Source: an uncultured Planctomycetaceae bacterium (GTDB lineage: Bacteria > Planctomycetota > Planctomycetia > Planctomycetales > Planctomycetaceae). From it: a stretch of 64,000 nt of DNA. A program made the position numbers and the translations under genes. Of the stretch, positions 15,323 to 63,424 are shown in pieces. The stretch lies in the NCBI GenBank assembly GCA_964388415.1, contig CAYMAO010000001.1:65072-129071 (forward strand). Direction: 5' to 3'. The notes beneath the pieces are model-generated. The model saw only the letters and a list, made by a program, of their open reading frames with translations, had not been told where the DNA came from and did no database searches. Every line of letters begins with the position of its first letter. Position 1 is the stretch's first letter.

Positions 15323-15679
<357 letters not shown>

Positions 15680-38597: not shown

Positions 38598-38626
38598 CAA
38601 AGCCCGGCGTCGGCGACGCCGGGAAC
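38598..38626. repeat. REP-like palindromic element copy A: CAAAGCCCGGCGTCGGCGACGCCGGGAAC
   Basis: Hairpin CCCGGCGTC-GGC-GACGCCGGG between a convergent gene pair. Same unit is found at 52230 and, inverted, at 63396. Confidence 0.7.
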
Positions 38627-38648
38627 GTCTTAGCATTCGCTAACTCTT

Positions 38649-39713
38649 TCACTCTTTCGCCGTCTTCGCCCCGCGCTTCCAGTCACCGATCCAGAGCTGG
38701 CTGGTCCCGTCGGCGGTCCGGTTGGAAGTCCACATCAGTTGCGTGCCGTCGGGACTGAAGACCGGCAAAACGTCGGCGGATTTGTGGTCGGTGATCCGCG
38801 TGATTTTCCCGCCTTTGAGCGTTTTCGGCGTCCGTTCGATTTCCATCGTCCATAAGTCAAAGTTCGCTCCCTGCGGACCTTTGCCGTAGTCGGCTCCCGC
38901 CCAGATCAGGTACTTCCCCGTCGGATGGAAATACGGGCACCAGTTGACCTGGTCGAGATTGTCGGTCAGCGGGACTTCGGTCTTGCCGTCGACGGAAATC
39001 GCAAACAACTGCAGCATGTCTTTTTTCTGTCGGTCGCTGCGAAAGATGATCCAGTTCCCATCGGGTGAAAAAAACGGCCCGCCGTCATAGCCGTCAGCAT
39101 TCGTCAGTTGGCGCACGCCGGTCCCATCGGCGTTCATCACGTACAAGTCGGGGTCTCCGTCGCGTGAGGACGTAAACACGATCTGCTTTCCGTCCGGCGA
39201 GAAACTCCCTTCGGCATCGTAGCCTTCCGACTCGGTCAACCGCTTCAGTCCCGTGCCGTCCAGGTGGACGATGTACAACTCCATGTGCGGATCAAAATCC
39301 CATTGGTAGCGGCGGCGGCCCCCTTGTGCAGCTTCATCGCGGGCCTTCTTCTCGGTGATGTCGATCGCCGGATCGGTATGGCTGGAGGCGAAGAGGACGT
39401 GGTCTCCTGAGTGAGAGAAATAGCTGCACGTCGTCCGCCCGCGTCCGGTGCTCAGCAAACGGGGCACGCGCTCATCCAGGTTCTGCACGTAAATCTGGTA
39501 GAACGGATAGCCGATCGGGTTCGCCTGGTAGACGATCATTTTCCCGTCGGGCGAGAAATAGCCTTCCCCGGCCCGCGGCAACCCAAACGTCACCTGCCGG
39601 ACGTTTGCCAGATGCCCGCCTTCCAGTTCGGTGACCGGCGGCGCGTCTTCCGCCCGGCCGACACTGCAAATCACGCTTGCGATAAGCAAAGAACCGCACA
39701 CGCCTCGTCCCAT
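38649..39713 (-). CDS. TolB-like / PD40 beta-propeller repeat protein (secreted)
   Basis: Signal peptide MGRGVCGSLLIASVICSVGRA. Repeated FSPDGK...YVMNADGTG PD40 motifs. Confidence 0.75.
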   Translation of the reverse strand: MGRGVCGSLLIASVICSVGRAEDAPPVTELEGGHLANVRQVTFGLPRAGEGYFSPDGKMIVYQANPIGYPFYQIYVQNLDERVPRLLSTGRGRTTCSYFSHSGDHVLFASSHTDPAIDITEKKARDEAAQGGRRRYQWDFDPHMELYIVHLDGTGLKRLTESEGYDAEGSFSPDGKQIVFTSSRDGDPDLYVMNADGTGVRQLTNADGYDGGPFFSPDGNWIIFRSDRQKKDMLQLFAISVDGKTEVPLTDNLDQVNWCPYFHPTGKYLIWAGADYGKGPQGANFDLWTMEIERTPKTLKGGKITRITDHKSADVLPVFSPDGTQLMWTSNRTADGTSQLWIGDWKRGAKTAKE

Positions 39714-39844
39714 GATCCCCACGCCTTTCTGCTGACCGGGCAACCGCTTGTCCAGCAGACTACCCTATCAGCGACAGCGTCGATCAGCAACTTGACGAGG
39801 GAGTGATCGCTCACTCCGAGTGCGGCGAACCAGCGCCACGACCA

Positions 39845-44641: not shown

Positions 44642-44723
44642 GGCCGCTTGGTGGAACTGGCAGACACGCAGGATTTAGGATCCTGTGCCGCAAGGCGTCG
44701 GGGTTCAAATCCCCGAGCGGCCA
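44642..44723 (+). tRNA. tRNA-Leu (anticodon TAG)
   Basis: Hand-folded. Acceptor GGCCGCT/AGCGGCC. U8. 3-bp D stem with GG in the loop. Anticodon stem CAGGA/TCCTG with loop TTTAGGA. Long variable arm (class II). T arm CGGGG-TTCAAAT-CCCCG. Discriminator A. CCA not encoded. Confidence 0.85.
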
Positions 44724-49962: not shown

Positions 49963-50218
49963 GCTGCACCTCAATGAGAAAATCGCGAATAAGGAACGGA
50001 CCCACAGCGACCAGCGGTTCAACGCCGTGTACGCCGTTCCGCTGGCTCCGGTTGGATTTTCTCTTGGTTGTTCCTGGAATTTAGTCTAATCGCCGCAAGA
50101 GGCGCTGGGAATGATCGGACGGTGCAGGAACCGGGAAATTTTCAGATCAGCCGATCATCGTCCTCAGAGATGTTGTTGACGGAGAAGTTTTCCTGAGGCA
50201 ACCCCACCGAGACTGTGG

Positions 50219-50500
50219 TCATTCCCGAACCGTAAACCCTGTTGCATGAAACTCTTGAGTCGCAGGCAGCTCCTCGATGCGTGTCAGGCTGGCCTGAAAT
50301 TGCGTGGCGACTTTCGTCAAGAATCCCGTAACGCCATCCGACGAGCCCTGGGCCTGAAGTTCGACCGTCCCGTCCGGCAGATTGCGAACGTACCCCGCGA
50401 TCGGGAAGGAGCGGGCCAAGTGGGCCGTGGTCGCACGAAACCCAACTCCTTGTACCCGGCCATGATAAATCACACGGCGGGTGATGTTTTCCTGATTCAT
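50219..50500 (-). CDS. acylphosphatase
   Basis: Signatures VIYHGRVQGVGFR and GYVRNLPDGTVE. Confidence 0.85.
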   Translation of the reverse strand: MNQENITRRVIYHGRVQGVGFRATTAHLARSFPIAGYVRNLPDGTVELQAQGSSDGVTGFLTKVATQFQASLTRIEELPATQEFHATGFTVRE

Positions 50501-51216: not shown

Positions 51217-52218
51217 ATGTTTGTCGACCAGATCTCAATCTCCTGTTTCGGCGGCGACGGCGGGCCCGGGTGTTGCAGCTTTCGCCGGGAATCGCACGTC
51301 CCGCGCGGCGGTCCCGACGGCGGCGACGGCGGCCGCGGCGGACACGTCATTCTCGAAGCCGATGAAAACGTCAGCAGCCTGGTGCATCTCGTCGGCATCA
51401 AGGACTGGAAGGCAGACAGTGGCGCGCCGGGACAAACGGCACTGAAAACCGGCCGTGACGGCGAAGACATCGTCATCCGCGTGCCGCCCGGAACCATTCT
51501 CCGCGATGCCCAGCGCGGGTTCGTCCTGAAGGACATGACCCGCCACGGCGACCGGGTGATCGTTGCGAAAGGAGGCGCCGGCGGCCGCGGCAATGCGGGG
51601 TATATGACGTCGACCAATCGTGCCCCGCGCGAGTTCACGCCGGGTGATGAGGGCGAACAGCGAGACCTCGTCCTGGAACTGAAAGTCATCGCCGACGTCG
51701 GACTGGTCGGCAAGCCGAACGCCGGCAAATCGACGCTGCTCAGCCGCTTGTCGCGTGCAACGCCCGAGATCGCCAATTATCCCTTCACTACCAAATCGCC
51801 GAACCTGGGGGTCGTCAACGTCGGCACGGACCGTCAATTCGTCCTGGCGGATATTCCGGGGCTGATCGAAGGGGCGCACGCCGGGGTCGGCCTGGGACAT
51901 GAGTTCCTCAAGCACGTGGAACGGACGCGCGTCTTGCTGCACCTGGTCGAACCGCAGCCCGACGATCAATCCGACCCGATCCAGAACTACCTGTCGATCC
52001 GTGAAGAATTGCGATTGTATGACGCCGCGCTGGCCGAGCGGCCGGAACTGGTCGTCGTCACGAAGGGCGAACTGGAGGACGCCGCGGCGATTGCGGAACT
52101 CCTGAATGAAACGATCCATCGCCCGGTGCTGGTGATTTCCGCCGTTACCGGTAAAGGGCTGCCGCAATTGATCCAGGCCACCGTCAAGCTGCTGGATGAC
52201 CTGAACGAACCGCAATAG
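51217..52218 (+). CDS. obg: GTPase Obg
   Basis: Gly-rich Obg fold (GGDGGPGCCSFRRE...GGPDGGDGGRGG). G1 GKPNAGKST. DIPGLIEGA. Confidence 0.9.
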   Translation: MFVDQISISCFGGDGGPGCCSFRRESHVPRGGPDGGDGGRGGHVILEADENVSSLVHLVGIKDWKADSGAPGQTALKTGRDGEDIVIRVPPGTILRDAQRGFVLKDMTRHGDRVIVAKGGAGGRGNAGYMTSTNRAPREFTPGDEGEQRDLVLELKVIADVGLVGKPNAGKSTLLSRLSRATPEIANYPFTTKSPNLGVVNVGTDRQFVLADIPGLIEGAHAGVGLGHEFLKHVERTRVLLHLVEPQPDDQSDPIQNYLSIREELRLYDAALAERPELVVVTKGELEDAAAIAELLNETIHRPVLVISAVTGKGLPQLIQATVKLLDDLNEPQ

Positions 52219-52229
52219 GCTGTTCTGCC

Positions 52230-52258
52230 CAAAGCCCGGTGTCGGCGACGCCGGGACC
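52230..52258. repeat. REP-like palindromic element copy B: CAAAGCCCGGTGTCGGCGACGCCGGGACC
   Basis: Same unit as 38598 with a single G·T wobble in the stem. Lies downstream of obg. Confidence 0.7.
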
Positions 52259-52352
52259 TTGCTGGCGAACGCACCCTCCTCACACGTTCCGAACTTTCTG
52301 ACTCGCATCCGGTGCGCGCAGCGACTACCATCATGAGTCCGATCCCCGGCTG

Positions 52353-54044
52353 GTGATGCGCTCCCTGACGACACGGAACCGTAATCGTATGGCTCACGAG
52401 CAGACTCCGAACGCCCTGTCTGATTTCACGCCCCCGCATCCGGGAACCTCGCAAATGCCCCGCTGGGACGGCGGCGAATTGCCGGCCCCGCCGGAGTTTC
52501 GACTGCGGAATTGGGCGTTGATGCTCGGTCCCGGACTGGTGATGGGAGCTTCGGCGATCGGGGGAGGGGAATGGCTGACCGGTCCGCTGATCACGGCTCG
52601 GTTTGGCGGCGGGCTGTTCTGGCTGGCGACGCTCAGCATTCTCGGCCAGACGATTTATAACGTCGAGATCAGCCGGTACACGCTCTACTGCGGCGAGCCA
52701 ATTTTTACAGGCAAATTTCGTATTCTTCCCGGACCGATGTTTTGGGTGTTTTTGTATCTGCTGCTGGACTTCGGCTCGTTCATGCCGTACCTGGCCAAGA
52801 GTGCGTCGATACCGCTGTTGACGTTGTACTACGGCTACGTACCGGAATTGAAAGAGATCCCCCTTCAGTACAGCATCGTCTCCTGCGTGCTGTTCGTCAT
52901 GCTGCTGATTCCGCTCTTGGTGGGGGGCAAAGTTTATAACTCGATGAAAGCCGTGATGACGTTCAAGTTGATCTTTGTCTTGTCGTTTCTCATGTTTCTG
53001 GCGGTGTGCTTTTCCTCCCCCGCCGTGTGGGAAAATCTGATCGGCGGTTTTTTCAAGTTTGGCAACATTCCGATCGTGCCCGTCGAACCGGGAGGCGCCA
53101 ACCTGGACAACGTGTTCGTCGCGCTCTGGGAAGGACGCCCGTGGCCAAAAATTGACATGACGGTGATCAGCCTGGTCATGGCGATGGCGGCCATTGCCGG
53201 GAATGGTGGACTCACCAACACGCCGATCAGTTCCTACACCCGCGATCAGGGCTGGGGGATGGGCAAGCACGTCGGTGCCATCCCCAGCGTCGTCGGCGGC
53301 CATGCCATCGAATTGTCACACGTCGGCATGGTGTTCCCGCCAAATTCCGAGACGTTACCGCGGTGGCGCGGATGGGTGCGTCACGTCATGCGGGAACAAT
53401 GGGGGCTCTGGATGCCCGCCTGCTTCATCGGGCTGGCGCTGCCCAGCATGCTTTCGCGAGTTTTTCTGCCGCACAACTCGATTCTCCCGAACCCGAATAC
53501 TGCAGCGGCAATGACGGCCCTCAAAGTCGGCGAATCTGTGGGGGCTGCCTTCGGAACGCAACTCGGGTCGCTGTTCTGGTTTTTGACGCTGTTTTGCGGT
53601 TTGCTGATACTGGGGACCAGTTGCGCCGCCACGGCGGATGGTGTGCTTCGCCGCTGGATCGACGTCTTTTGGACCGGCTTGCCCATGCTGCGGAAGTGGG
53701 ACGCCAAACATATCGGCAAGCTCTATTTCGGCACGCTGATGGCGTACGCCGCCATTGGACTGTTGATGCTGATCTTCGTGGACGGGACGCAATTATTGAC
53801 CATCTCGACAATGATTTACAATTACGCGCTGGGCTTCAGCTGTTTCCATGTCCTGATCGTCAATTTGACGCTGCTGCCGAAGGAATTGCGACCAGGCTGG
53901 TTCCCGCGGATTGGCCTCGCGGTTGCCGGTGTCTTCTTCATCTGTTTCGCGGTCATGTCGATGCTGGCGAAACTGGAAGAATTGAAAGTCATCGACTGGT
54001 TCGAACCGTATGAAACGTCCGCAGCTGTAACAACCGAGAAGTAG
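52353..54044 (+). CDS. Nramp-family divalent metal transporter
   Basis: GPGLVMGASAIGGGEWLTGP resembles the Nramp N-terminal motif. ~11 TM helices. Start is ambiguous (GTG 52353, ATG 52356 or ATG 52389). Confidence 0.65.
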   Translation: MMRSLTTRNRNRMAHEQTPNALSDFTPPHPGTSQMPRWDGGELPAPPEFRLRNWALMLGPGLVMGASAIGGGEWLTGPLITARFGGGLFWLATLSILGQTIYNVEISRYTLYCGEPIFTGKFRILPGPMFWVFLYLLLDFGSFMPYLAKSASIPLLTLYYGYVPELKEIPLQYSIVSCVLFVMLLIPLLVGGKVYNSMKAVMTFKLIFVLSFLMFLAVCFSSPAVWENLIGGFFKFGNIPIVPVEPGGANLDNVFVALWEGRPWPKIDMTVISLVMAMAAIAGNGGLTNTPISSYTRDQGWGMGKHVGAIPSVVGGHAIELSHVGMVFPPNSETLPRWRGWVRHVMREQWGLWMPACFIGLALPSMLSRVFLPHNSILPNPNTAAAMTALKVGESVGAAFGTQLGSLFWFLTLFCGLLILGTSCAATADGVLRRWIDVFWTGLPMLRKWDAKHIGKLYFGTLMAYAAIGLLMLIFVDGTQLLTISTMIYNYALGFSCFHVLIVNLTLLPKELRPGWFPRIGLAVAGVFFICFAVMSMLAKLEELKVIDWFEPYETSAAVTTEK

Positions 54045-54058
54045 GCCGAGCTCTCCTG

Positions 54059-54784
54059 ATGAACGAACTTCGCGAACAGCTCAGTTGGCTGCTGCACATC
54101 CAGGATCGCCTGGACGACATGATCACGCTGTTTGGTCCCTGGACCTACGTGATCCTGTTTCTGGTCATCTTCTGCGAGACGGGCCTCGTCGTGACGCCGT
54201 TTCTGCCGGGTGATTCGCTGCTGTTCGCCGCCGGGGCGTTCGCGGCTTTGAACCCTCAGCATCTCAACATCTGGGTGATGTTCGTCGTGCTGAGCGTGGC
54301 GGCAATTCTGGGGGACACGGTGAATTACTGGATCGGCAAATGGATCGGACCTAAGGCTTTCAGCGGGAAGATTTGGTTTCTCAAACAGGACCATCTGCGA
54401 AAGACGGAAGCGTTTTACGAGAAGTACGGGGCCAAGGCGATTGTGCTGGCCCGGTTTGTGCCGATCGTCCGGACGTTCATTCCGTTCGTGGCGGGGATCG
54501 GGGCGATGAACTATCAGCAGTTCATTGCTTACAACATCCTGGGCGGGATCGCCTGGGTCGGGATCTGTACGTGGGCCGGCTACTTTTTTGGAAATTTCCC
54601 CTGGGTGAAAGACCATTTTGAAGCCGTTGTGGTGGCGATCATCGCGCTCTCGGTGCTGCCGATGGTCTGGGAAATTTATGCCTCGCGACGCTGGCCGGAG
54701 CCTCATGTGGCGAACGGCGAACTGCCCGCAACCGACGGCGAACCCGCAAGCGGCCAACCCGCATCCATCAACTCTCAACTCTGA
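54059..54784 (+). CDS. DedA-family membrane protein
   Basis: VVTPFLPGDSLLFAAGAFA DedA/SNARE-associated signature. Confidence 0.8.
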   Translation: MNELREQLSWLLHIQDRLDDMITLFGPWTYVILFLVIFCETGLVVTPFLPGDSLLFAAGAFAALNPQHLNIWVMFVVLSVAAILGDTVNYWIGKWIGPKAFSGKIWFLKQDHLRKTEAFYEKYGAKAIVLARFVPIVRTFIPFVAGIGAMNYQQFIAYNILGGIAWVGICTWAGYFFGNFPWVKDHFEAVVVAIIALSVLPMVWEIYASRRWPEPHVANGELPATDGEPASGQPASINSQL

Positions 54785-54792
54785 ACCAAATC

Positions 54793-56478
54793 ATGAACAA
54801 CGGCGGCAAAGAACGTTGGGCCTCACGGATTGGCCTGGTGCTGGCGATGGCCGGGAATGCCGTTGGCTTGGGGAATTTCCTGCGTTTTCCGGCCCAGGCG
54901 GCGAAAAACGGCGGCGGGGCGTTTCTGATTCCGTACTTCGTGGCGTTTGTCGTTGTCGGCCTGCCGCTCGTCTGGATCGAATGGACGATGGGCCGTTATG
55001 GCGGGCAGTTCGGGCATCACTCGACACCCGGTATCTTCGATGCGATGGGGAAAAAGAAATTCTGGAAGTATCTCGGCGTGTTCGGCCTGTGGGGCAACCT
55101 GATCATCGCCGCGTTTTATCTGTATATCGAATCATGGTGCATTGCCTACGCTGGGTTTGCGTTAGGCAACGGGTTCGCTCATCAGTCCGGTCTGGAATAT
55201 TTTAAGTTGGTGACGGGCGAGAAGCCGGGGGAACTTCAGGCGGTCAGCCCCTATGGCCTGAAAATTTTCGCGGTTTGCGTCGCAATTAACATCTATATAC
55301 TCTCGCGCGGCCTGGCCAAAGGGATCGAACTGGTCTGTAAGATCGGGATGCCCTTGTTGATGCTGTTTGCCGCCTTCCTGGCGATTCGCGGATTGATGAT
55401 CTCGCCGGCGCTCGATGGCGCGCACGTCAAAGCCAGTCCGCTTGTGGGGTTGAATTTCGTCTGGGAACCAAAGTTCGATCAACTGACCAATCCGGCGGTC
55501 TGGCTGGCCGCCGCCGGGCAGATCTTCTTCACGTTGTCGATCGGCATGGGCTCCATGCATTGTTATGCATCCTACCTGCGGAAAAACGACGATGTGACAT
55601 TGAACGGCGCGACCGGAGCCTGGACAAACGAATTTTGCGAAGTGGTGCTCGGCGGGAGCATTCTGATTCCGATCGCCGTGGCCTACTTGGGGCTGCAGGA
55701 AGTGCAAAGCGCCGTGGGCGGCGGATCGGGGTTCGGGCTGGGATTCATGGTCTTTCCCACGCTGTTCAATAATTGGGGCGCATTGGCGCCCGCGGCCGGG
55801 TTTATGTGGTTCGGCCTGTTGTTCTTTGCGGCAATTACCAGTTCGCTGGCGATGGGGCAGCCGATCATGGCGTTTCTGCAGGACGAATTCGGTTTCTCCC
55901 GCGAGAAAAGCGCACTCGCATTCGGCGGCATGTTGTTGCCGCTCGCGCTGCCGGTCGCGCTGCTCAGCCAGGCGAGTTTCTTCGATGAATTCGACTACTG
56001 GGCTGGAACGCTGGGGCTGGTCCTCATGGCCGTAGCGGAATCCGTGCTGTTCTGCTGGGTGTTCGGCGTCAACAAGGGCTGGGACGAGATGATGCGCGGC
56101 GCCGATCTGAAAGTGCCCCGCTTCTTCTTTTATATCATGAAGTATGTCACGCCGACGTTTCTGATCGTGATTCTCACCGCCTATGTCTTCCTGCCCGAGG
56201 CGGGATGGGAAACGTATCTCGGCGCTGGACCGAAGGACAAACCGATCCCGGCCTGGAAATGGTCTAAAGACGGCATGATCGGAAAGCTGCTGCATTACGA
56301 TCTGCCGATGAAAGCCGATGCCACGCCCGAAGAAATCGAATTCAACAACGACCTGAAAATGGTACGGACCGTCGATCGCGTGATCATGGTCACGGTCTTC
56401 GTCGGCTTCTCCGGGCTGGTCAGCCTGGCGTGGAGTCGGCGTGAGAGAAAAATCCAGACAGCGGAGGGTGTTGCATGA
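54793..56478 (+). CDS. sodium-dependent transporter (NSS/SNF family)
   Basis: GLGNFLRFP NSS signature in TM1. 11-12 TM helices. Confidence 0.85.
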   Translation: MNNGGKERWASRIGLVLAMAGNAVGLGNFLRFPAQAAKNGGGAFLIPYFVAFVVVGLPLVWIEWTMGRYGGQFGHHSTPGIFDAMGKKKFWKYLGVFGLWGNLIIAAFYLYIESWCIAYAGFALGNGFAHQSGLEYFKLVTGEKPGELQAVSPYGLKIFAVCVAINIYILSRGLAKGIELVCKIGMPLLMLFAAFLAIRGLMISPALDGAHVKASPLVGLNFVWEPKFDQLTNPAVWLAAAGQIFFTLSIGMGSMHCYASYLRKNDDVTLNGATGAWTNEFCEVVLGGSILIPIAVAYLGLQEVQSAVGGGSGFGLGFMVFPTLFNNWGALAPAAGFMWFGLLFFAAITSSLAMGQPIMAFLQDEFGFSREKSALAFGGMLLPLALPVALLSQASFFDEFDYWAGTLGLVLMAVAESVLFCWVFGVNKGWDEMMRGADLKVPRFFFYIMKYVTPTFLIVILTAYVFLPEAGWETYLGAGPKDKPIPAWKWSKDGMIGKLLHYDLPMKADATPEEIEFNNDLKMVRTVDRVIMVTVFVGFSGLVSLAWSRRERKIQTAEGVA

Positions 56479-56600
56479 CAACCTGGGCGTGGGTCTTCAT
56501 GTTCGGTGCCTGGGCCGTGATCATCGGCTGCATGGTGTATTGTTTTTCCAAGCTGCTTTTCTCGCCGCGCGGCTTGGGCGATGATGTTTCGGAATCGTAA
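56475..56600 (+). CDS. 41-aa single-TM small protein translationally coupled to the NSS transporter
   Basis: ATG overlaps the NSS stop (ATGA). MTTWAWVFMFGAWAVIIGCMVYCFSKLLFSPRGLGDDVSES. Below the ORF-track length cutoff. Confidence 0.45.
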   Translation: MTTWAWVFMFGAWAVIIGCMVYCFSKLLFSPRGLGDDVSES

Positions 56601-56659
56601 ACTTGCAAACGTCTTCGCCCCGGCGAACCGCTCGAGGCAACTCCTGAGAAAGCACCGTC

Positions 56660-56968
56660 ATGCCAAGTTTTTCCAGCGAACCGATCCTCAAAACGGCCCG
56701 GCGCGAAATGTTCTCCGCGGCCGGCGTCTGGCTCGCCACACTCTGCTGGTCCGTCGGATATTGTGCGAACTACGGATATGATCTGCAGCCCGAAGACCTG
56801 ACATTCGTGTTCGGTTTTCCGACCTGGATTTTCTATGGCGTCGTGCTGCCGTGGTGGCTGTGCACGCTGATCTCCGGCGTGTTTGCGTTTGGATTCATGC
56901 AGGATGCCGACCTCGGCGAAACCGATGAAGGGCCGTCGGCTGCGGAGGGCGAAGATGCCGGTCGCTAA
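56660..56968 (+). CDS. small 2-TM membrane protein, putative SSS-transporter-associated small subunit (DUF4212/DUF485-like)
   Basis: Two hydrophobic helices and an acidic C-terminal tail. Overlaps the start of the downstream SSS gene by 14 nt. Confidence 0.55.
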   Translation: MPSFSSEPILKTARREMFSAAGVWLATLCWSVGYCANYGYDLQPEDLTFVFGFPTWIFYGVVLPWWLCTLISGVFAFGFMQDADLGETDEGPSAAEGEDAGR

Positions 56969-58703
56969 TTTTGGATTTCTGCTTGCCGAGGCCGCGGGGA
57001 AATCCGCCGCGGACAAGCCTGGCGCGTTCGTGTTCGTCGCGCTGATGGTGTTCATTGCCGCCTCGGTCTGGCTGGGCACGCTGGCCCAGTCGGCCATGGA
57101 CAAGAAAAAATTCCTCGAAGGTTTTTTTCTGGGCAACCGCGGCCTCGGGGCCTGGGCGCTCGCGCTGACGGCCACCGTGCAGAGCGGCGGGACATTCATG
57201 GGCTTTCCGTCGCTGGTTTACAGCTCCGGGTGGATCGTCACACTGTGGATCGGCAGTTACATGGTCGTCCCGCTCACCGGGTTTACGATTCTAGGCAAAC
57301 GGCTGGCGCAGCTTTCCCGCAAGGCGAACGCCATCACCGTCCCCGATCTGCTGCGCACCCGCTTCGATGATCCCCGCGTCGGGCTGACGGCGTCGCTGCT
57401 GATCATGCTGTTCATGAGCATCATGATGATCGCCCAGTTCAAAGCCGGCGCGATCGTGATGAAGCTCTCCGCGGGCGACCTGATGGCCTTTTCCGAAGAC
57501 GCCGAGGTCAAGATCGACTGGCAGTATTACATCGGCCTGACCGTCTTTTCGCTGACCGTCATCGGCTACACGATGATCGGCGGATTTCTCGCGTCCGTCT
57601 GGACCGACTTGTTTCAAAGCGTGATGATGTTCTTCGGCGTGATGGTGCTGCTGGCGTTAGCGCTGATTGCCGTCACGAAGGAAGCCGAGCAGACGTCACT
57701 GACCGCGGGCATGGAGCAAGCCACGCGAAACGCCGTGGAAAAGACGTCGATGCGGTTTGCCTCCGGTCCTGGTTATGCAACCAAGCCGAATCCCGATTTT
57801 GTGAAGGGACGAACGGACAATCAAGTCCCGGAGGAGATCGAAGCTCCAGAACACGGCTTTCTGCCGGTGGGCCTGGCGTTTTCCATGTTTTTCGTCTGGG
57901 TCTGGGGAGGCTGGGCCTCGCCGGCGAGCATGGTCCGCGTGATGGCGGCGTCCAATACCGAGGTCATGCGGAAATCGATTTTTCTGCTCTCGTGCTACAA
58001 CTGCTGCATCTATCTCCCCTTGATTGTCATCTGCGTCTGCGGCCGAACGATTATTCCGGACCTGGTGCAGACCGATGAAATCATCCCCCGGCTGGCCATC
58101 CGGCTGACGCAGGAAATCCCCGGCGGGTCCATGATCACGGCGCTCATTCTCGCCGCTCCGTTCGGGGCGATCATGGCCACGGTCAGCTGTTATCTGCTCG
58201 TGATCGCCTCCGGACTGGTTCAGGACGTGTATCTGCGATTCATCAACCCAGGGGCAACGTCGAAGGAACTTCGGTTCTGGACGAATGTGTCGATGGTCGG
58301 CATCGGAGTCGCGGCCATTCTCGCCAATCTCGATCCGCCCAAATATCTGCAGGCGCTCGTGGTGATGAGCACGTCGTGCGGGGCGGCGGCCCTGGCGGTT
58401 CCCATGCTCATGGCCTGCTATTGGCGCAAGGCGACCTCCGCTGGCGTACTGACCGCCATGCTGACTGGCTCGGGAACCGTGCTGTTGTTGTTCGGCCTGG
58501 GACAGCTTCCACTCGATTGGCTCGGTCCGCCGCAGACCATCGGCATGACAAAAGGCTTCAAGCCGTATTTCGTCTACGGCCTGGAACCCGTCGTCTGGGG
58601 GCTGCTGGTCTCGGCAATCGCCGGTGTCGGCGTGAGCCTGGTCACCAGGCCGCCGCACGAAGACCATCTGGCAAAATACTTCGACGCGCCGTTGGCGAAA
58701 TAA
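56955..58703 (+). CDS. sodium:solute symporter (SSS) family transporter
   Basis: ~13 TM helices. SSS-like features (GGFLASVWTDLFQ...). ATG 56955. Track start is 56883. Confidence 0.8.
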   Translation: MPVANFGFLLAEAAGKSAADKPGAFVFVALMVFIAASVWLGTLAQSAMDKKKFLEGFFLGNRGLGAWALALTATVQSGGTFMGFPSLVYSSGWIVTLWIGSYMVVPLTGFTILGKRLAQLSRKANAITVPDLLRTRFDDPRVGLTASLLIMLFMSIMMIAQFKAGAIVMKLSAGDLMAFSEDAEVKIDWQYYIGLTVFSLTVIGYTMIGGFLASVWTDLFQSVMMFFGVMVLLALALIAVTKEAEQTSLTAGMEQATRNAVEKTSMRFASGPGYATKPNPDFVKGRTDNQVPEEIEAPEHGFLPVGLAFSMFFVWVWGGWASPASMVRVMAASNTEVMRKSIFLLSCYNCCIYLPLIVICVCGRTIIPDLVQTDEIIPRLAIRLTQEIPGGSMITALILAAPFGAIMATVSCYLLVIASGLVQDVYLRFINPGATSKELRFWTNVSMVGIGVAAILANLDPPKYLQALVVMSTSCGAAALAVPMLMACYWRKATSAGVLTAMLTGSGTVLLLFGLGQLPLDWLGPPQTIGMTKGFKPYFVYGLEPVVWGLLVSAIAGVGVSLVTRPPHEDHLAKYFDAPLAK

Positions 58704-58802
58704 GCCCGCAGCGCGAGCAAGGGACGCGAATCACGAGCCACGAGCCTCGAGCGTCAGCGGCCGGTCCGTCCTCATCCCTGTCGGTCGGGGCGATCTTCGG
58801 AA

Positions 58803-60143
58803 TCACACCCAACCGGGTTCCCAGCCGGCGCGGTACGATTTCGTCAGCAGTGATTTTGCGTGCGGGGAGCCGGTCAGTTCCATGGCCTCCGGGTTCCAGG
58901 AGAGCTTCGTTCCCTTCAACCGGATGGCGATCGTTCCCAGAAGCACGGCTTCCGACAGCGGCCCGGCGTAGTCGAAGTGCGACGTCGTCTTGTCTTCGCC
59001 GCGGCACGCGTCGGCCCACGAGGTGTAATGATTGCGGGCCGGCACGACTTCGATCTTGTAATCCGCGAATTTCTCTTCCGGGAACAGCTTCGGCATCGCC
59101 ACGTGCGGAATCACCAGCGAGCCCCTCTCGCCGATAAGCACCGAACCTGAGCCGGGGAGTGCATAGCTTTCCGGCAGCCCGGTTTCAGCCTTGGACGGCA
59201 GATGCTTCTCACCGTCGTGCCAGGTGACTTTGATCGTCTCGCCAGCCGTCAATTCGGTGCCTGGGAATTCGTATGACACGGTGGAGTGCCTGTACCAGAT
59301 CTCCTTGTTCATGGGGCCGGCATCGGCCTGAATGCTCAACGGGGCCGTCAGCTTGAGCGCCATGAAGACCGGGTCGAGAATGTGGCAGCCGAAGTCGCCC
59401 AGTTGGCCGTTCGAGAAATCCTGCCAGGCGCGCCAGTTGAAGCTGTGATAAATCTTTGGCATAAACGGCCGCTGTGGCGCGACGCCCAGCCATTCGTCCC
59501 AGTGGATCGTTTCCGGCACGGGTTCGCCTTGGGCCGGACGGTCGTCGACGAGAATCCAGCCCATCGCGCCGCTCTGCCAGGAATGAACTTCCTTCACCTT
59601 GCCGATGACGCCGTCATGCACCAGCTTGACCGCGGTGCGGTACGCTTCGTGCGACTGAATCTGGTTCCCCATCTGCGTAACAACATTGTATTTTTTCGCC
59701 GCCAGCCGCATCTGCCGGGCTTCATGGACGGTGTGCGTGAGGGGCTTCTGGCATTGGACGTGCTTGCCAAGCTGCATCGCCGGCAGCGAGACCGGGGCAT
59801 GCATGTGATCGGGCGTAGAGACAATAACCGCGTCGAAGTCCTTGTGATGCTCGAACAGCTTCCGCCAGTCGGTGTAGCGCTTCGCCTGTGGATACTTTTC
59901 AGCCGCCTGACCAAGATGCGGCTTGGATTCGTCGATGTCGCAGAGCGAGACGACTTCCACCTGCGGACTTGCTGCGGTCGCCGTCAAATCCGACCAGCCC
60001 TTCCCGCCGCACCCGACCGAGGCGACGCGCAATTTCCCGTTCGCTCCGTAAACCCTGGACCAGCTTGCGGCGGTCAACGGCAGAATCGTTCCGGCTGCGG
60101 CAGCGTTCTTCAGAAACTGGCGGCGCGTGGATCGGGCGGGCAT
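58803..60143 (-). CDS. TAT-secreted Gfo/Idh/MocA-family oxidoreductase
   Basis: Twin-arginine signal RRQFLKNAAAAG. Rossmann motif LRVASVGCGGKG. Gfo/Idh/MocA C-domain. Confidence 0.8.
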   Translation of the reverse strand: MPARSTRRQFLKNAAAAGTILPLTAASWSRVYGANGKLRVASVGCGGKGWSDLTATAASPQVEVVSLCDIDESKPHLGQAAEKYPQAKRYTDWRKLFEHHKDFDAVIVSTPDHMHAPVSLPAMQLGKHVQCQKPLTHTVHEARQMRLAAKKYNVVTQMGNQIQSHEAYRTAVKLVHDGVIGKVKEVHSWQSGAMGWILVDDRPAQGEPVPETIHWDEWLGVAPQRPFMPKIYHSFNWRAWQDFSNGQLGDFGCHILDPVFMALKLTAPLSIQADAGPMNKEIWYRHSTVSYEFPGTELTAGETIKVTWHDGEKHLPSKAETGLPESYALPGSGSVLIGERGSLVIPHVAMPKLFPEEKFADYKIEVVPARNHYTSWADACRGEDKTTSHFDYAGPLSEAVLLGTIAIRLKGTKLSWNPEAMELTGSPHAKSLLTKSYRAGWEPGWV

Positions 60144-60521
60144 GGCGTCGGCTCCTTGTGATTCGTTTTTGCGAGCGGATTCACGACGTCAGTTTAACAG
60201 ACGACGGGCGGGCAGGGAATTCGCTTGCCGGCGTTTGACGTCTTCGGGTGTCGTCGCGGATTTCGGGATTCGGGCGGCGAGCGGGATGACTTGGCGCTCG
60301 AATTGATGCCACCAGCCATCCTGCCTGGTGAGCGCCCTGTCATCCGGTCGAAACGGCCACCTTTTCCCGCCAGGGGAGTAGAGGAAAAACAATCCTCCGA
60401 TACGACACCCCTGCCGAAACGCGATAGATTCCCTGATTGCCGGTTGCATCAACGGGCGTTGATCTGCTATGCTGGTTCGGGATGAAATCTACAGGCAACG
60501 GAGCACACAGGAACTCCGAAG

Positions 60522-61934
60522 ATGCTGCGAATTTTGGGCCGCGGATCGACCCTGTGTGACCGAGTGCCTCGCCGCGAGGCGCTGCGTGTCGGCGGGTTGG
60601 CGTTGTTGTCTGGTGCGACGTGGCCGCAAAGAGTGCCGGCCGCCGCGGCATTGCCGGCGTCGCATTCCGGTGCGGCGAAGTCGGTGATTCTGATCAACCT
60701 CTTCGGCGGGCCGCCGCACCAGGATTTGTTCGATCTCAAGCCCGATGCGCCGAAAGAAGTGCGCGGGGAATTCTCGCCGATTTCCACTTCAATTCCCGGA
60801 GTTCAGATCGGCGAGTTGCTGCCTGAGATTGCTCAGGTCATGGACCGCTGCACGCTGATCCGGACGTATTCCCACAAGTACAACAGCCACAATCCGTACA
60901 ATGTTTTCACCGGGTTCGATGGCGGGAACGACCGCGAAAATTACTTTGCGAAGCGGTCCGACCATCCGTCGATCGCCTCGGTCTGCATGTCCGTGCGGCC
61001 GCCCTCGGGCGATATCCCGCCGTATGTGATCCTGCCGGCCTATCCGGGGTATTCGCAGGCATTGCGTCGGTCCGGTCCGTACGGGGCGTATCTCGGCAGC
61101 CAGTACGATCCGCTGTTCACGCTGTGGGACCCGCAGTTCCCCGGCAAGTCGAAGGACTTTTACGAGCATTTCACGGCGCAGGGGCAGCCCGTGCTCCCTT
61201 CGCTCGATGGCTTGCCGAACATCACGGCGGATCGGCTCGACCGGAGGCAGACGCTGCTGGAACAGATCGACCGGCAGACCGCCGCGCTGGAACGGTCGCG
61301 CGTGGTCGAAGGGATGGCTCATTTTCAACGGCAGGTCTTCACGCTGCTGACGTCGCCCAAGACGCGGTCGGCCTTTGATCTCTCTCGGGAAAGCGACGTA
61401 TCCCGGGACCGTTACGGCCGCCATCTGTGGGGTTCGAGCCTGCTTCTTTGCCGCCGGCTGGTCGAAGCCGGTTCGCTGTTCGTGAGCGTGAACTGGGAGG
61501 CCGACAACGGCAATCACTGGGATCTGCACGAGAACAATTTCGGCATGTGCCGGGCGCAGGCGCCGATCCTCGATCAGATGGTGTCGGCGCTCATTCTCGA
61601 TTTGGAAGCGCGCGGCATGCTGGAGACGACGCTGGTCATCGTGATGGGCGAAATGGGCCGATCTCCCCGGATCAACGCTAAGGCCGGCCGCGATCACTGG
61701 CCGCAATGCGGCTTCGCGCTTCTGGCCGGGGGTGGGATGAAGCGCGGGCTTGTCGTCGGGAAGACCGATGGCCAGGCCGGATACCCAATCGAGCGGCCCG
61801 TCTCCGCAGGCGACCTGGCGTCGACGATCTACCACTTGCTGGGCATCGATTACAACCTCACCGTCAACGACTTGACGGACCGGCCCAATCACATTTCGCA
61901 CGGCGGCGAACCCGTCTGGGAGGCCCTGGCATGA
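60522..61934 (+). CDS. DUF1501 domain protein (sulfatase-like fold, TAT signal)
   Basis: RREALRVGGLALLSGA TAT signal. DUF1501 hallmarks VILINLFGGPPHQDLFDLKPDAPKEVRGEF and GRDHWP. Confidence 0.85.
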   Translation: MLRILGRGSTLCDRVPRREALRVGGLALLSGATWPQRVPAAAALPASHSGAAKSVILINLFGGPPHQDLFDLKPDAPKEVRGEFSPISTSIPGVQIGELLPEIAQVMDRCTLIRTYSHKYNSHNPYNVFTGFDGGNDRENYFAKRSDHPSIASVCMSVRPPSGDIPPYVILPAYPGYSQALRRSGPYGAYLGSQYDPLFTLWDPQFPGKSKDFYEHFTAQGQPVLPSLDGLPNITADRLDRRQTLLEQIDRQTAALERSRVVEGMAHFQRQVFTLLTSPKTRSAFDLSRESDVSRDRYGRHLWGSSLLLCRRLVEAGSLFVSVNWEADNGNHWDLHENNFGMCRAQAPILDQMVSALILDLEARGMLETTLVIVMGEMGRSPRINAKAGRDHWPQCGFALLAGGGMKRGLVVGKTDGQAGYPIERPVSAGDLASTIYHLLGIDYNLTVNDLTDRPNHISHGGEPVWEALA

Positions 61935-63361
61935 CGCCTGGAAATCTGCACGAACGACTGGCAATTTCGCAGTTCTCCCGGCGAACGGGTTTGCAGGCCG
62001 GCGCGCTCGGCCTGATGGGCTTTGGCATGGCCGACGTCGCCGCCGTTCATGCCGCGAACTCCGAACTGCCCGTGACGCCGACCAAGTCGGTGATCTTCGT
62101 CTTCTTGAACGGCGGTATCTCTCAACAGGACAGTTTCGATCTGAAGCCCGGTGCGCCAGAATCCGTGCGAGGCGAATTTGCGCCGATCGCCACCGACACG
62201 CCCGGCGTTTCGATCTGCGAACATCTTCCTTTGCTGGCCCGTCAGAGTTCCCGGTATGCGCTGGTCCGGTCGATCACCTCGGACAGCAGCGACCACGGAG
62301 CGGCGTGCCACATGCTGTTCACGGGCCGGATGGACATGCCGCCGGGGGCGAACTTCAGCCAGGTTCCCGGGCCGAATGAATGGCCGTCGCTGGCCTCGCA
62401 GATGACGTATGCCACGCGGACCCGGTCTGGTTTGCCGCCGGCCGCCGTGTTGCCGCAGCCCAGCGTCAACGAAGCGAATCTCTTCCGGCCGGGGCAATAC
62501 GCCGGGAAACTGGGCGCGGGCCATGAAGCCTGGCATCTGCCGGTGGCAGCCCCGTGTGCGCTGGGCAACGGGGCGTGTCCGCATTGCTTTCGATTCGACG
62601 GCCAGCCGTTTGATCATGGTTCATCGACGATTTTCGAGATGCCGATGCTGACATTGCCCGAGGGGGGGCCGACGCGGTTAGGTCGCCGCATCCAGCTTCT
62701 TGATCACATCGACGGCCAGCGCCGGGCTCTGGAAGTCGGGGCCGAAGCGTTGCGGCTGGACCGGAATCGTCAGCAGGCGTTGTCCGTCTTATCCAATCCG
62801 AAAGTCCGGCTCGCCTTTGAAGTCGAACAGGCCGATCCGGCGATTCTCGCGGCCTACGGCAAGAATAAATTCGGGCTGTCGCTGCTGATGGCACGGCGTT
62901 TGGTGGAGGCCGGCGTGAACCTGGTGCAGGTGAATCTCGGGAAGAACTCGTCGTGGGATACGCACCGCCGGAATTTTCCGAACCTGAAATCGAACCTGCT
63001 GCCGTACCTCGATCAGTCGTTGTCCGCCCTGTTGCAAGACCTCGCGGACCACGGGCTGCTGGAAAGCACGCTGGTCGTCGTGTCTGGCGAGTTCGGCCGC
63101 ACGCCGAAAATCAACGCGGAAGGGGGCCGCGATCACTGGGGGCCCGTGATGACGAGCCTGTTCGCCGGCCCGGGAGTTCCCGGCGGCCAGGTGATCGGCG
63201 AGACCGACGCGCTGGCGGCGTACCCGATCAGCCAGGTCTACAGCGTGGAAAATCTGGCCGCCACGATGCTCCAAGCACTGGACATTCCGGCGCACGCTCA
63301 GTGGATGGACCTTGACGGTCGGCCGCATGAATTCTATCGAGCCGATCCGATCGCGTTCTGA
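61931..63361 (+). CDS. DUF1501 domain protein, second tandem copy
   Basis: ATG 61931 overlaps the upstream stop (ATGA). VIFVFLNGGISQQDSFDLKPGAPESVRGEF. GRDHWGP. Track start 61706 is upstream of the real start. Confidence 0.8.
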   Translation: MTPGNLHERLAISQFSRRTGLQAGALGLMGFGMADVAAVHAANSELPVTPTKSVIFVFLNGGISQQDSFDLKPGAPESVRGEFAPIATDTPGVSICEHLPLLARQSSRYALVRSITSDSSDHGAACHMLFTGRMDMPPGANFSQVPGPNEWPSLASQMTYATRTRSGLPPAAVLPQPSVNEANLFRPGQYAGKLGAGHEAWHLPVAAPCALGNGACPHCFRFDGQPFDHGSSTIFEMPMLTLPEGGPTRLGRRIQLLDHIDGQRRALEVGAEALRLDRNRQQALSVLSNPKVRLAFEVEQADPAILAAYGKNKFGLSLLMARRLVEAGVNLVQVNLGKNSSWDTHRRNFPNLKSNLLPYLDQSLSALLQDLADHGLLESTLVVVSGEFGRTPKINAEGGRDHWGPVMTSLFAGPGVPGGQVIGETDALAAYPISQVYSVENLAATMLQALDIPAHAQWMDLDGRPHEFYRADPIAF

Positions 63362-63395
63362 GACGCGTCGCATGACATGATGGCTCGCGTTCGCT

Positions 63396-63424
63396 CGGTC
63401 CCGGCGTCACCGACGCCGGGCTTT
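63396..63424. repeat. REP-like palindromic element copy C (inverted orientation): GGTCCCGGCGTCACCGACGCCGGGCTTTG
   Basis: Reverse complement matches copies A and B. Hairpin followed by CTTTG on the + strand, so it can act as a terminator for the DUF1501 gene. Confidence 0.65.

What the first reader, a model, noticed from the sequence alone, without database searches (positions are those of the whole stretch)
38598..63424. A second REP-like palindromic repeat family, CAAAGCCCGG(C/T)GTCGG(C/T)GACGCCGGGA(A/C)C, present three times in 64 kb
Near-identical 29-nt units lie at 38598-38626, at 52230-52258 and, in inverted orientation, at 63396-63424. All three are intergenic and sit immediately 3' of genes (APC permease with convergent TolB-like gene, obg, and the DUF1501 pair). 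Each forms a 9-bp GC-rich stem with a 3-nt loop flanked by CAAAG/CTTTG, so it can act as a bidirectional terminator hairpin. This indicates a genome-wide dispersed palindromic element family that may not be annotated.
Basis: seen in the sequence. Interest (0 to 1): 0.5.

Follow-up and report, generated by a model that had tools for sequence, protein, structure and literature searches.

The report
Planctomycete REP-like repeat with cognate transposase
The three hairpin repeats are real (five copies in the window) and belong to a 29-base REP-type dispersed element of Planctomycetaceae which, in related genomes, brackets a previously unannotated IS200/RAYT-like transposase gene that most likely copies it.

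Summary
The window holds five copies at four intergenic sites, not three: 38598, 52230 and 63397, plus an inverted pair at 34041-34094. The unit is 29 nt: C-AAAG, a 9-bp GC stem, a GGC loop, then ACC. The flanks carry no sequence information.

The same unit recurs in at least four other Planctomycetaceae MAGs and in 120 or more metagenome blocks, at about one site per 16 kb. Three stem pairs covary. Sites lie a median of 12 nt after stop codons. They are about 15 times denser between convergent genes than between divergent ones. 28% are tail-to-tail pairs that mix two stem variants. A few are in-frame inserts in genes such as PurL. Presence varies between close relatives.

In four independent genomes or metagenomes, head-to-head pairs of the element bracket a ~190-aa gene. 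No curated model recognises this protein, but its predicted fold and its HUH and Tyr motifs match IS200/IS605 TnpA and E. coli RAYT. This is a REPtron.

So this is a REP/RAYT-type system with a new foot (CAAAG, not GTAG or CGTC) and a divergent transposase clade. The cognate gene was not located in the window's own genome, and its genome-wide copy number could not be counted. A terminator role is untested, and no U-tract is present.

The parts
34041..34069 (+). Element copy, stem variant CCCGGCGAT/ATCGCCGGG ('G-AT'). Left half of a tail-to-tail doublet that lies between a lipid-A acyltransferase gene (stop at 34097, - strand) and a Rieske gene.
   Evidence: (53 bits)
34066..34094 (-). Element copy with head GAAAG and stem variant CCCGCCGTC/GACGGCGGG ('C-TC'). 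Right half of the doublet. It starts 2 nt after the acyltransferase stop codon. The two halves are separated by only 2 nt (AT).
   Evidence: 46 bits; two separate hairpins, with the AAAG and CUUU feet pairing with each other
38598..38626 (+). Element copy (CCCGGCGTC GGC GACGCCGGG) between convergent genes: an amino-acid permease (stop at 38553) and a PD40 beta-propeller protein (stop at 38649).
   Evidence: (52 bits)
52230..52258 (+). Element copy 11 nt after the obg stop codon, in sense orientation, with one G.T wobble (CCCGGTG). A strain with 98% Obg identity has a perfect-stem copy at the same site. Relatives at 89%, 84% and 81% Obg identity lack it.
63397..63425 (-). Element copy 36 nt after the stop codon of the second DUF1501 gene (61931..63361, + strand), antisense to that gene, with loop GGT.

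Best explanation
The five window copies belong to a REP-type (repetitive extragenic palindrome) family of Planctomycetaceae. The unit is 29 nt: an unpaired foot C-AAAG, a 9-bp GC-rich stem (CCCG-S-CG-NN), a GGC loop, and a short ACC tail.

By analogy with REP/RAYT and IS200/IS605 systems, the unit most likely folds as a single-stranded DNA hairpin. A single-copy, domesticated HUH/Y1 tyrosine transposase would then recognise it through the hairpin plus the 5' foot, and cut and rejoin it, so that copies spread to new sites. A ~190-aa protein of exactly that fold is encoded in related genomes and is bracketed by head-to-head pairs of the element, which is a REPtron.

Copies persist where they do little harm: just downstream of stop codons, and occasionally in frame in protein loops. 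There they are probably transcribed as 3'-UTR hairpins.

Shown here:
- the family, its covariation and its sharp boundaries;
- its positional bias and its heterotypic doublets;
- gain and loss between relatives;
- the REPtron architecture and the transposase fold.

Inferred, not shown:
- that this protein mobilises the element;
- any RNA-level role;
- that the window's own genome still carries the cognate gene.
For: Family and structure:
- 26 copies in the window plus four MAGs share the consensus. Pairing holds in 99% of cells, with compensatory changes at 3 pairs.
- In an independent set of 127 unique metagenome copies, the three stem pairs left free by the search pattern are Watson-Crick in 97%, 94% and 93% of copies. 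Chance expectation is 50%, 25% and 25%.
- Boundaries are sharp, with no information beyond -1 and +3.

Distribution:
- 130 unique sites comprise 93 singlets, 36 tail-to-tail doublets and 1 head-to-head doublet.
- Density per kb of intergenic DNA is 1.5 for convergent, 0.62 for tandem and 0.10 for divergent gene pairs.
- The median distance after the stop codon is 12 nt.
- Singlets show no orientation bias, 20 sense to 15 antisense, and the density is about 1 site per 16 kb.
- Doublets are heterotypic in 26 of 36 cases, p = 0.007.

Turnover and insertion:
- The obg site is present at 98% Obg identity and absent at 89%, 84% and 81%.
- There are in-frame inserts in a PurL loop, with different stem variants in orthologues, and a tandem triplet in an FG-GAP protein.

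Transposase:
- The L075 and L154 proteins are 51% identical.
- The family has 281 members, none with a precomputed Pfam domain.
- H106, H108, Y164 and H168 are invariant.
- A profile search of the PDB hits only IS200/IS605 TnpA, with the HUH and Tyr motifs aligned.
- The AlphaFold2 model has mean pLDDT 86. The top 30 Foldseek PDB hits are all IS608, ISDra2 or IS200 TnpA, or E. coli RAYT 4ER8.

REPtron:
- Element pairs bracket the gene in L075, L154, L219-222 and L233.
- The only head-to-head pair among the 130 census sites is the one at a transposase gene (Fisher p = 6e-8).
- P0249 comes from the same metagenomes in which the element is abundant.
- More distant homologues are flanked by sister hairpins, and one of these sister hairpins (GAAG-CCCAGGGGTTGCAACCCCTGGG-CTTC) was shown to be a dispersed family in its own right. 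This matches the transposase/REP co-evolution described for RAYTs (PMC6006769, PMC8266576).
Against: - No cognate transposase gene flanked by this element was found for the window's own organism.
- The one family member recovered from the window's samples (P0324) is flanked by a sister element that is absent from the window. Its assignment to the same genome rests only on coverage and composition.
- Two of the four REPtron cases (L075, L154) were found in blocks selected for containing the element, which is an ascertainment bias. The two unbiased positives are P0249 and P0248, out of four homologues sampled.
- The protein scores far below the curated cut-offs: NCBIfam RAYT 14 bits against 80, and Pfam Y1_Tnp 12-15 bits against 23. 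It also lacks the Y---NP signature of RAYTs.
- No target-site duplication or conserved target motif was seen.
- Mobilisation was not demonstrated.
- Genome-wide copy number in the source genome is an extrapolation.
Confidence: 0.72

Rival explanations
1. The copies are ordinary host intrinsic terminators, or 3'-end mRNA-stabilising hairpins, whose similarity reflects convergent selection for a GC-rich hairpin rather than copying of one element.
For: - Sites sit a median of 12 nt after stop codons and are enriched between convergent genes.
- The hairpins are stable, at -17 to -19 kcal/mol.
- The first collection scan also found many unrelated AAAGCCCG...CGGGCTTT terminator-like hairpins in other phyla.
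Against: - There is no U-tract. The tail is ACC on one strand and CUUUG on the other, and the terminator scan missed the two copies in the scanned stretch, 52230 and 63397.
- The unpaired foot, the loop and the tail are conserved in sequence across genomes that share only about 70% nucleotide identity in obg.
- There is no orientation preference relative to the upstream gene.
- Copies occur in frame inside PurL and other genes.
- The element brackets a transposase-fold gene.
- Element boundaries are sharp.
Confidence: 0.08
2. The motif is a binding or processing site for a host protein, such as a nucleoid-associated protein, gyrase, an RNA-binding protein or an RNase. On this view it is kept by selection and spread by recombination or slippage, and the nearby Y1 gene is a bystander that happens to attract such sites.
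For: - The foot, loop and tail are conserved in sequence.
- Doublets are heterotypic in the manner of E. coli BIMEs, which bind IHF and gyrase according to the background given in PMC6006769.
- Partial tandem duplications in L010, L011 and L040 suggest slippage.
Against: - The head-to-head architecture on both sides of the Y1 gene recurs in four independent lineages and is otherwise absent among 129 sites.
- Sister Y1 genes carry sister hairpins, which is the signature of enzyme/substrate co-evolution.
- No candidate binding protein was identified.
Confidence: 0.1
3. In the window's own genome the family is an orphan. The copies are relics of past amplification and the cognate transposase has been lost or replaced, possibly by the P0324 gene, whose flanks carry a sister element.
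For: - The only Y1 homologue recovered from the window's samples is flanked by the sister element, not by this one.
- The window holds 5 copies, of which one has a wobble and two are diverged.
Against: - Three of the window copies differ from each other by only 1-3 bases, and four of the five have perfect stems.
- The density in the window equals that in populations that do carry the REPtron.
- Only about 0.1 Mb of this organism could be inspected, so absence of the gene is not shown.
Confidence: 0.25

Closest known systems
REP / BIME / REPIN elements with their RAYT (TnpAREP) genes, i.e. REPtrons of Proteobacteria such as E. coli, Pseudomonas and Stenotrophomonas (PMC3733652, PMC6006769, PMC8266576, PMC3116915)
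   Same: - A short GC-rich palindrome with an unpaired conserved 5' foot.
- Dispersed and mostly extragenic, within about 20 nt of ORF 3' ends, with convergent and unidirectional contexts far more common than divergent ones.
- Singlets and inverted dimers that mix two REP subtypes, like the Y/Z REPs of E. coli.
- Occasional in-frame intragenic copies.
- A single HUH/Y1 gene bracketed by the repeats.
- Transposase and repeat co-vary between lineages.
   Different: - The foot is C-AAAG rather than GT[AG]G or CGTC.
- The stem is a perfect 9 bp with a fixed GGC loop and an ACC tail.
- Dispersed dimers are tail-to-tail, whereas the pairs next to the gene are head-to-head.
- The protein lacks the Y---NP signature (it has Y-I-L-R-H), carries an N-terminal WFH..LTTY.AWLPGDPRGFRTR motif, and scores far below the NCBIfam RAYT and Pfam Y1_Tnp cut-offs.
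Class 3 TnpAY1 of Quentin et al. 2018 (PMC6006769), found mainly in Planctomycetes and Acidobacteria
   Same: - The same phylum.
- About 180 aa long, with an HVH-type HUH motif and W followed by A.
- Genes flanked by atypical hairpins that can reach hundreds of copies, so REPtron-like.
   Different: - Class 3 is defined by the Y-motif Y----Q (YV[VI]xEQ) and a CnGA foot. Here the motif is YILRH and the foot is CAAAG.
- I could not compare sequences directly, so the relationship is unresolved.
IS200/IS605 TnpA (IS608, ISDra2)
   Same: - The best sequence-profile and fold matches.
- HUH plus a single catalytic Tyr.
- Substrates are subterminal single-stranded DNA hairpins with a guide tetranucleotide at the 5' foot.
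   Different: - This is not an insertion sequence. The gene keeps one conserved chromosomal context, has no tnpB and shows no multi-copy gene.
- What is multi-copy is the 29-nt hairpin alone.
Rickettsia palindromic elements (RPE) and intragenic REPs (PMC3733652)
   Same: In-frame insertion of a palindromic repeat into loops of housekeeping proteins: PurL, and an FG-GAP protein.
   Different: - The unit is much shorter, adding about 9-11 aa.
- Intragenic copies are a small minority.

Membership tests
REP (repetitive extragenic palindrome) elements | Short (20-40 nt) palindromic unit able to form a stem-loop | tested here: met
   The unit is 29 nt with a 9-bp stem and a 3-nt loop. Covariation is seen at 3 stem pairs.
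REP (repetitive extragenic palindrome) elements | Many dispersed copies per genome | tested here: inconclusive
   There are 5 copies at 4 sites in the 64-kb window. Related populations show about 1 site per 16 kb.
REP (repetitive extragenic palindrome) elements | Predominantly extragenic, close to ORF 3' ends, rare between divergent genes | tested here: met
   Sites per kb of intergenic DNA are 1.5 (convergent), 0.62 (tandem) and 0.10 (divergent). The median distance after a stop codon is 12 nt. All four window sites are intergenic.
REP (repetitive extragenic palindrome) elements | Inverted dimers or clusters (BIME/REPIN-like) | tested here: met
   36 of 130 sites are tail-to-tail doublets, and 26 of those 36 are heterotypic. 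The window doublet is at 34041-34094.
GTAG- or CGTC-tagged REP superfamilies (Di Nocera 2013) | Unpaired GTAG or CGTC tetranucleotide at one end of the hairpin | tested here: not met
   The foot is C-AAAG in 158 of 181 copies, and the other end is ACC.
REPtron (REP family with cognate Y1 transposase gene) | A Y1/HUH transposase gene flanked by copies of the same REP | tested here: met
   Met in related genomes: L075, L154, L219-222 and L233. It was not located in the window's own genome. P0324, from the same samples, carries a sister element instead.
RAYT / TnpAREP (class 2 TnpAY1) | HUH motif, catalytic Tyr and the IS200-like fold | tested here: met
   H106, H108 and Y164 are invariant. The PDB profile hits are all TnpA. 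The top 30 Foldseek hits are TnpA or RAYT 4ER8.
RAYT / TnpAREP (class 2 TnpAY1) | Y---NP signature and curated model score (NCBIfam NF047646 at least 80 bits; Pfam PF01797 at least 23 bits) | tested here: not met
   The motif is Y-I-L-R-H. NF047646 scores 12.6-14.4 bits and PF01797 scores 12.5-14.7 bits or gives no hit.
RAYT / TnpAREP (class 2 TnpAY1) | Cleaves and rejoins cognate single-stranded REP DNA | not testable with these tools
   This needs the in vitro cleavage/strand-transfer assay of PMC8266576.
Class 3 TnpAY1 (Quentin 2018) | Y----Q motif and flanking hairpins with a CnGA foot | tested here: not met
   The motif here is YILRH and the foot is CAAAG. The published definition is taken from PMC6006769.
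Intrinsic (Rho-independent) terminator | GC-rich hairpin followed directly by a U-rich tract | tested here: not met
   The hairpin is present but no U-tract follows it; the tails are ACC or CUUUG. The consensus scan of 50000-64000 lists neither the 52230 copy nor the 63397 copy.

The most novel reading that the evidence does not exclude
The CAAAG-foot hairpins and the ~190-aa 'YILRH' HUH proteins form a distinct, so far undescribed class of REP/domesticated-transposase system, widespread in Planctomycetota. It would have several sister repeat families that share an AAG-CCC...GGG outline, each paired with its own transposase. It would also have its own architectural rule: head-to-head pairs at the gene, and heterotypic tail-to-tail pairs when dispersed. 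The class is invisible to current Pfam and NCBIfam models.
Probability: 0.5. Interest if true: 0.55.

Novelty: new variant of a known kind. Interest (0 to 1): 0.45.

Why it matters
REP/RAYT systems have been characterised almost entirely in Proteobacteria.

- **A compact new example.** This is a 29-nt substrate with a different foot, paired with a transposase clade that annotation pipelines call 'hypothetical'.
- **Annotation.** The element can be used to annotate hundreds of intergenic hairpins in Planctomycetaceae genomes. It also explains assembly breaks in MAGs and flags in-frame inserts in housekeeping genes.
- **Experiment.** It provides matched enzyme/substrate pairs (CCCGSCG, CCCAGGGGTT and CCCACGGATAG stems) for testing how HUH enzymes read a hairpin foot.

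It does not change the general picture of how REPs work.

Tried and rejected
- **Rfam.** A scan of the whole window found only a tRNA.
- **Literature.** A full-text search for the sequence found only unrelated primers and terminators. Searches for REP or RAYT in Planctomycetes found only GTAG/CGTC families and class 3.
- **Phage.** A scan of viral contigs gave 0 hits.
- **First collection scan.** About 60 single hits in unrelated phyla were discarded as symmetric AAAAGCCCG...CGGGCTTTT terminator-like hairpins or coding coincidences.
- **Sense orientation near stop codons.** An apparent rule that copies within 11 nt of a stop are always sense did not hold. It is trivial for tail-to-tail doublets, and singlets are 20 sense to 15 antisense.
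- **Single reading frame.** An apparent single frame (QSPATASPG) for intragenic copies held for the four verified cases. It did not hold in the wider, crude census, where several non-arginine frames occur.
- **L122 RAYT-like gene.** This Y..NP-type gene is not the cognate enzyme. It has its own different flanking repeat.
- **General 'AAAG + any hairpin' scan.** Too noisy to be useful.
- **Finding the window's own Y1 gene by source accession.** The cluster listing gives no sample identifiers.
- **Gene calls in fetched loci.** These come from a crude codon-usage caller. Most of the 23 'intragenic' census sites are start-codon over-extensions through the stop-free element.

Full report
**1. Observation**

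The third was reported 1 nt off. No match occurred in 100 shuffles.

Relaxing the pattern revealed a fourth locus with two diverged copies tail to tail:
- 34041-34069 (+): CAAAG CCCGGCGAT GGC ATCGCCGGG AT
- 34066-34094 (-): GAAAG CCCGCCGTC GGC GACGGCGGG AT

Their stems differ from the other copies by compensatory changes.

A covariance model built later finds no further copy in the window. Rfam recognises nothing there. Among about ten perfect hairpins with stems of at least 9 bp in the window, four belong to this family, and the wobble copy at 52235 makes five. Each unit folds at about -17 to -19 kcal/mol. The doublet folds as two separate hairpins, with the outer AAAG and CUUU feet pairing with each other.

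**2. Context in the window**

Pfam identifies the neighbouring genes:
- The doublet starts 2 nt after the stop codon of a lipid-A acyltransferase gene and lies upstream of a Rieske gene.
- The 38598 copy lies between a convergent amino-acid permease gene and a PD40 gene.
- The 52230 copy lies 11 nt after obg.
- The 63397 copy lies 36 nt after a DUF1501 gene.

All sites are intergenic. Orientation relative to the upstream gene is not constant.

**3. The family outside the window**

The window is identical to metagenome contigs from ERZ3430527, ERZ3430528 and SRR73699xx. Its Obg protein places it in Planctomycetaceae near Schlesneria.

- About 60 single, symmetric AAAAGCCCG...CGGGCTTTT terminator-like hairpins or coincidences in unrelated phyla.
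- Multiple asymmetric matches in four Planctomycetaceae MAGs: JBBIJW01, CAZDGB01, CAVPPT01 and CAZWGW01.

None of these MAGs is the source genome. Their obg is only about 69% identical at the nucleotide level, and the element sits elsewhere.

The 26 copies give the consensus (C)AAAG CCCG-S-CG-WY GGC RW-CG-S-CGGG (A/T)C. The base before AAAG and the bases after GGG are conserved although the search pattern did not constrain them. Pairing holds in 99.1% of cells, with double changes at three pairs.

A family-specific scan of metagenomes also hit its limit, at 120 blocks and 967 kb, mostly from Ga0105047 and Ga0335397. In 127 unique exact matches, the three pairs left free by the pattern are Watson-Crick in 97%, 94% and 93% of copies, each with at least two abundant pair types. 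Information content falls to zero beyond position -1 (C) and positions +1 to +3 (ACC). The unit is therefore 29 nt with sharp edges.

**4. Distribution**

These figures use a crude codon-usage gene caller; about 82% of the DNA is called as coding. The 130 unique sites comprise 93 singlets, 36 tail-to-tail doublets and 1 head-to-head doublet.

| Context | Sites | Sites per kb of intergenic DNA |
|---|---|---|
| Tandem genes | 46 | 0.62 |
| Convergent genes | 33 | 1.5 |
| Divergent genes | 4 | 0.10 |

A further 24 sites lie at block edges, and 23 were called intragenic (see section 5).

- The median distance from the upstream stop codon is 12 nt, and 75 of 112 distances are 20 nt or less.
- Singlets show no orientation bias, at 20 sense to 15 antisense.
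- A zero-truncated Poisson fit gives about one site per 16 kb. This matches the window's 4 sites in 64 kb.
- Tail-to-tail doublets preferentially combine a G-type half with a C-type half (26 of 36, p = 0.007). TC with AT is the commonest inner-stem pairing, exactly as in the window's doublet.

These properties match those described for REPs: location within 20 bp of ORF 3' ends, convergent and unidirectional contexts far more common than divergent, head-to-head and tail-to-tail dimers, and intragenic copies (PMC3733652).

**5. Evidence for gain, loss and insertion**

*The obg site.*
- A strain with 98% Obg identity carries the element at the same place, with a perfect stem. Its contig ends exactly at the element, as expected at a repeat.
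- The relative at 89% lacks it within the 49 nt available after obg.
- The relative at 84% has an unrelated hairpin at that position.
- The relative at 81% has the next gene directly after obg.

*Inside genes.*
- In MAG JBBIJW the element lies inside PurL, translated as QSPATASPG. It also occurs as three tandem 33-nt units inside an FG-GAP protein.
- Most Planctomycetaceae PurL proteins have a short loop at that position. The clade nearest JBBIJW carries a 9-11 aa insert there.
- At the DNA level the orthologues carry different versions: a perfect copy (L050), a decayed copy (L096), the GAT/ATC variant with 2 mismatches (L098, which also has a second intragenic copy), and a different perfect stem, CAAAG-CCCAGGGGTT-GC-AACCCCTGGG (L097).
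- The element has no stop codon in any frame.
- In the wider census, most of the 23 'intragenic' calls are start-codon over-extensions. The deep ones use several frames, none of them arginine-rich.

**6. The transposase**

A motif scan found an HUH...Y protein in L122. It is RAYT-like: Pfam Y1_Tnp scores 24.6 bits, and NCBIfam RAYT scores 49 bits against a cut-off of 80. It is flanked by a different repeat, so it is not the cognate enzyme.

A tblastn search with that protein then pointed to ORFs in L075 and L154 that abut element copies.
- These two ~190-aa proteins are 51% identical, E = 4e-72.
- They define a family of 281 proteins, none with a precomputed Pfam domain. Most are labelled hypothetical, and a few carry a JGI 'RayT' label. 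Many lie on contigs of only 1-2 kb.
- Invariant residues include H106 and H108 (HVHLL) and Y164 and H168 (YILRH), together with an N-terminal WFH..LTTY.AWLPGDPRGFRTR motif.
- Curated models score far below threshold.
- A profile of the family hits only IS200/IS605 transposases in the PDB. The E-values are marginal (0.006-0.02), but the HUH and Tyr motifs are aligned.
- An AlphaFold2 model has mean pLDDT 86 and pTM 0.81. Its 30 best Foldseek PDB matches are IS608, ISDra2 and IS200 TnpA and E. coli RAYT 4ER8, each with probability 1.00.

**7. REPtron architecture**

- **L219-L222 (P0249).** This protein comes from the very metagenomes in which the element is abundant. The gene has a head-to-head pair upstream, 923-961 (-) and 995-1033 (+), with the ATG at 1046. 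A second head-to-head pair, 1578-1616 (-) and 1636-1674 (+), overlaps the stop codon, whose TGA is formed by CTTTG-A. Both pairs share the form gagagtg-[G type]-spacer-[C type]-cacyct.
- **L075.** The same 3' arrangement.
- **L154.** A head-to-head pair on the 5' side and a single copy on the 3' side.
- **L233 (P0248), a different sample.** A head-to-head pair ending 8 nt before the ATG, and a degenerate copy after the stop.

The only head-to-head pair among the 130 census sites is the one in L154 (Fisher p = 6e-8).

Of the four homologues chosen from the protein list without regard to the element, two are bracketed by it. The other two are bracketed by sister hairpins with the same AAG-CCC...GGG outline:
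- CCAAG-CCCACGGATAG.CTATCCGTGGG-CTTTTC for P0253.
- GAAG-CCCAGGGGTTGCAACCCCTGGG-CTTC for P0324.

The second sister hairpin is itself dispersed, with about 17 unique copies in the metagenome loci. It is also the stem found in the L097 PurL insert. This pattern matches the transposase/REP co-evolution reported for RAYTs (PMC6006769, PMC8266576).

**8. What remains open for the window's genome**

P0324 comes from ERZ3430525, ERZ3430527, ERZ3430528 and SRR7369907. Three of these, all except ERZ3430525, are samples that also hold the window's contig.

| Sample | P0324 contig coverage | Window contig coverage |
|---|---|---|
| ERZ3430527 | 5.1x | 5.3x |
| ERZ3430528 | 8.2x | 7.0x |

Its tetranucleotide composition also matches the window, with r = 0.98. 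However, its flanks carry the sister element, which has no copy in the window, and its 15.7-kb contig has no CAAAG-CCCGSCG copy.

So one of three things is true:
- the contig belongs to a co-resident relative;
- the genome carries several REP families whose cognate genes lie elsewhere;
- the window's family is an orphan.

**9. Mechanism**

*Shown:*
- a hairpin-forming 29-nt unit with a conserved unpaired foot;
- its dispersal and turnover;
- its bracketing of a Y1/HUH gene.

*Inferred from IS608, ISDra2 and E. coli TnpAREP biochemistry (PMC6006769, PMC8266576):*
- the enzyme binds the folded single-stranded hairpin;
- it uses the bases at the 5' foot (CAAAG), and perhaps the ACC tail, to select the cleavage site;
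- it cuts and rejoins single-stranded DNA, which produces new copies and dimers.

The bias towards gene 3' ends may reflect purifying selection, insertion preference, or both. A secondary RNA-level role as a 3'-UTR stabiliser or weak terminator is plausible but untested. No U-tract is present.

**10. Comparison and novelty**

The system works like a REP/RAYT REPtron. It fails the defining features of three known groups:
- the GTAG and CGTC REP superfamilies (different foot);
- class 2 RAYTs (no Y---NP motif, and scores below curated cut-offs);
- class 3 TnpAY1 (no Y----Q motif and no CnGA foot).

I found no description of this sequence or this protein clade in the searchable literature.

I rate it a new variant of a known kind. 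It is of moderate interest to specialists in mobile elements and useful for annotation, but it is not conceptually surprising.

Noticed in passing
window 22981-23083 (core 23001-23059): A 26-bp-stem perfect palindrome, AATGTAGGACACTTGCTCCGCAAGTG / tgattgg / reverse complement, sits inside a second, outer inverted repeat (22981-22997 with 23067-23083). Its GTAG-containing arm recurs as inverted pairs at 35 or more sites in the metagenome loci. It is therefore a separate, GTAG-type REPIN-like family, with one copy in the window.
   Followed up: partly
L234 6861, 7696, 8278; L097 11812, 12304; about 17 unique sites in L099-L218: A sister dispersed palindrome, GAAG-CCCAGGGGTTGCAACCCCTGGG-CTTC, with a symmetric 'double foot'. 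It flanks the Y1 homologue P0324 from the window's own samples and is inserted twice in the PurL gene of L097. It has no copy in the window.
   Followed up: partly
L122 1-700: A RAYT-like gene of the Y..NP type (39-626). It is flanked by its own ~25-bp inverted repeat, TCGCTTGCGCTTCGCGGACCTTCGA, which is also dispersed (L125, L145, L151, L155, L157, L177). This is a third repeat/transposase pair in the same community.
   Followed up: partly
PurL proteins P0121-P0170 (loop between NNEF.Y and SIPPSLL): This PurL loop is a hotspot for short inserts in Planctomycetaceae. Besides the CAAAG element, some lineages carry AHGLQPVG or AHGLRPVD, which can be back-translated (my reconstruction; DNA not fetched) to another perfect palindrome, GCCCACGGGCTGCAGCCCGTGGGC.
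   Followed up: no
L093 11070-11115: In the relative with 84% Obg identity, the position after obg holds an unrelated 14-bp-stem hairpin, ACCGACCGCATCAG/CTGATGCGGTCGG, in place of the element.
   Followed up: no
window 14944-15145 and 15339-15540: A 202-nt direct repeat with 77% identity and 395-nt spacing. It may be an internal repeat of a coding sequence.
   Followed up: no
L010 5880-5990; L040 2853-2900; L011 6824-6917: Clusters contain truncated or partially duplicated units, for example a repeated right arm ATCGCCGGGA and 33-nt tandem units. This suggests slippage or abortive processing at the hairpins.
   Followed up: no
window 44642-44723: A tRNA gene, the only Rfam match in the window.
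   Followed up: no
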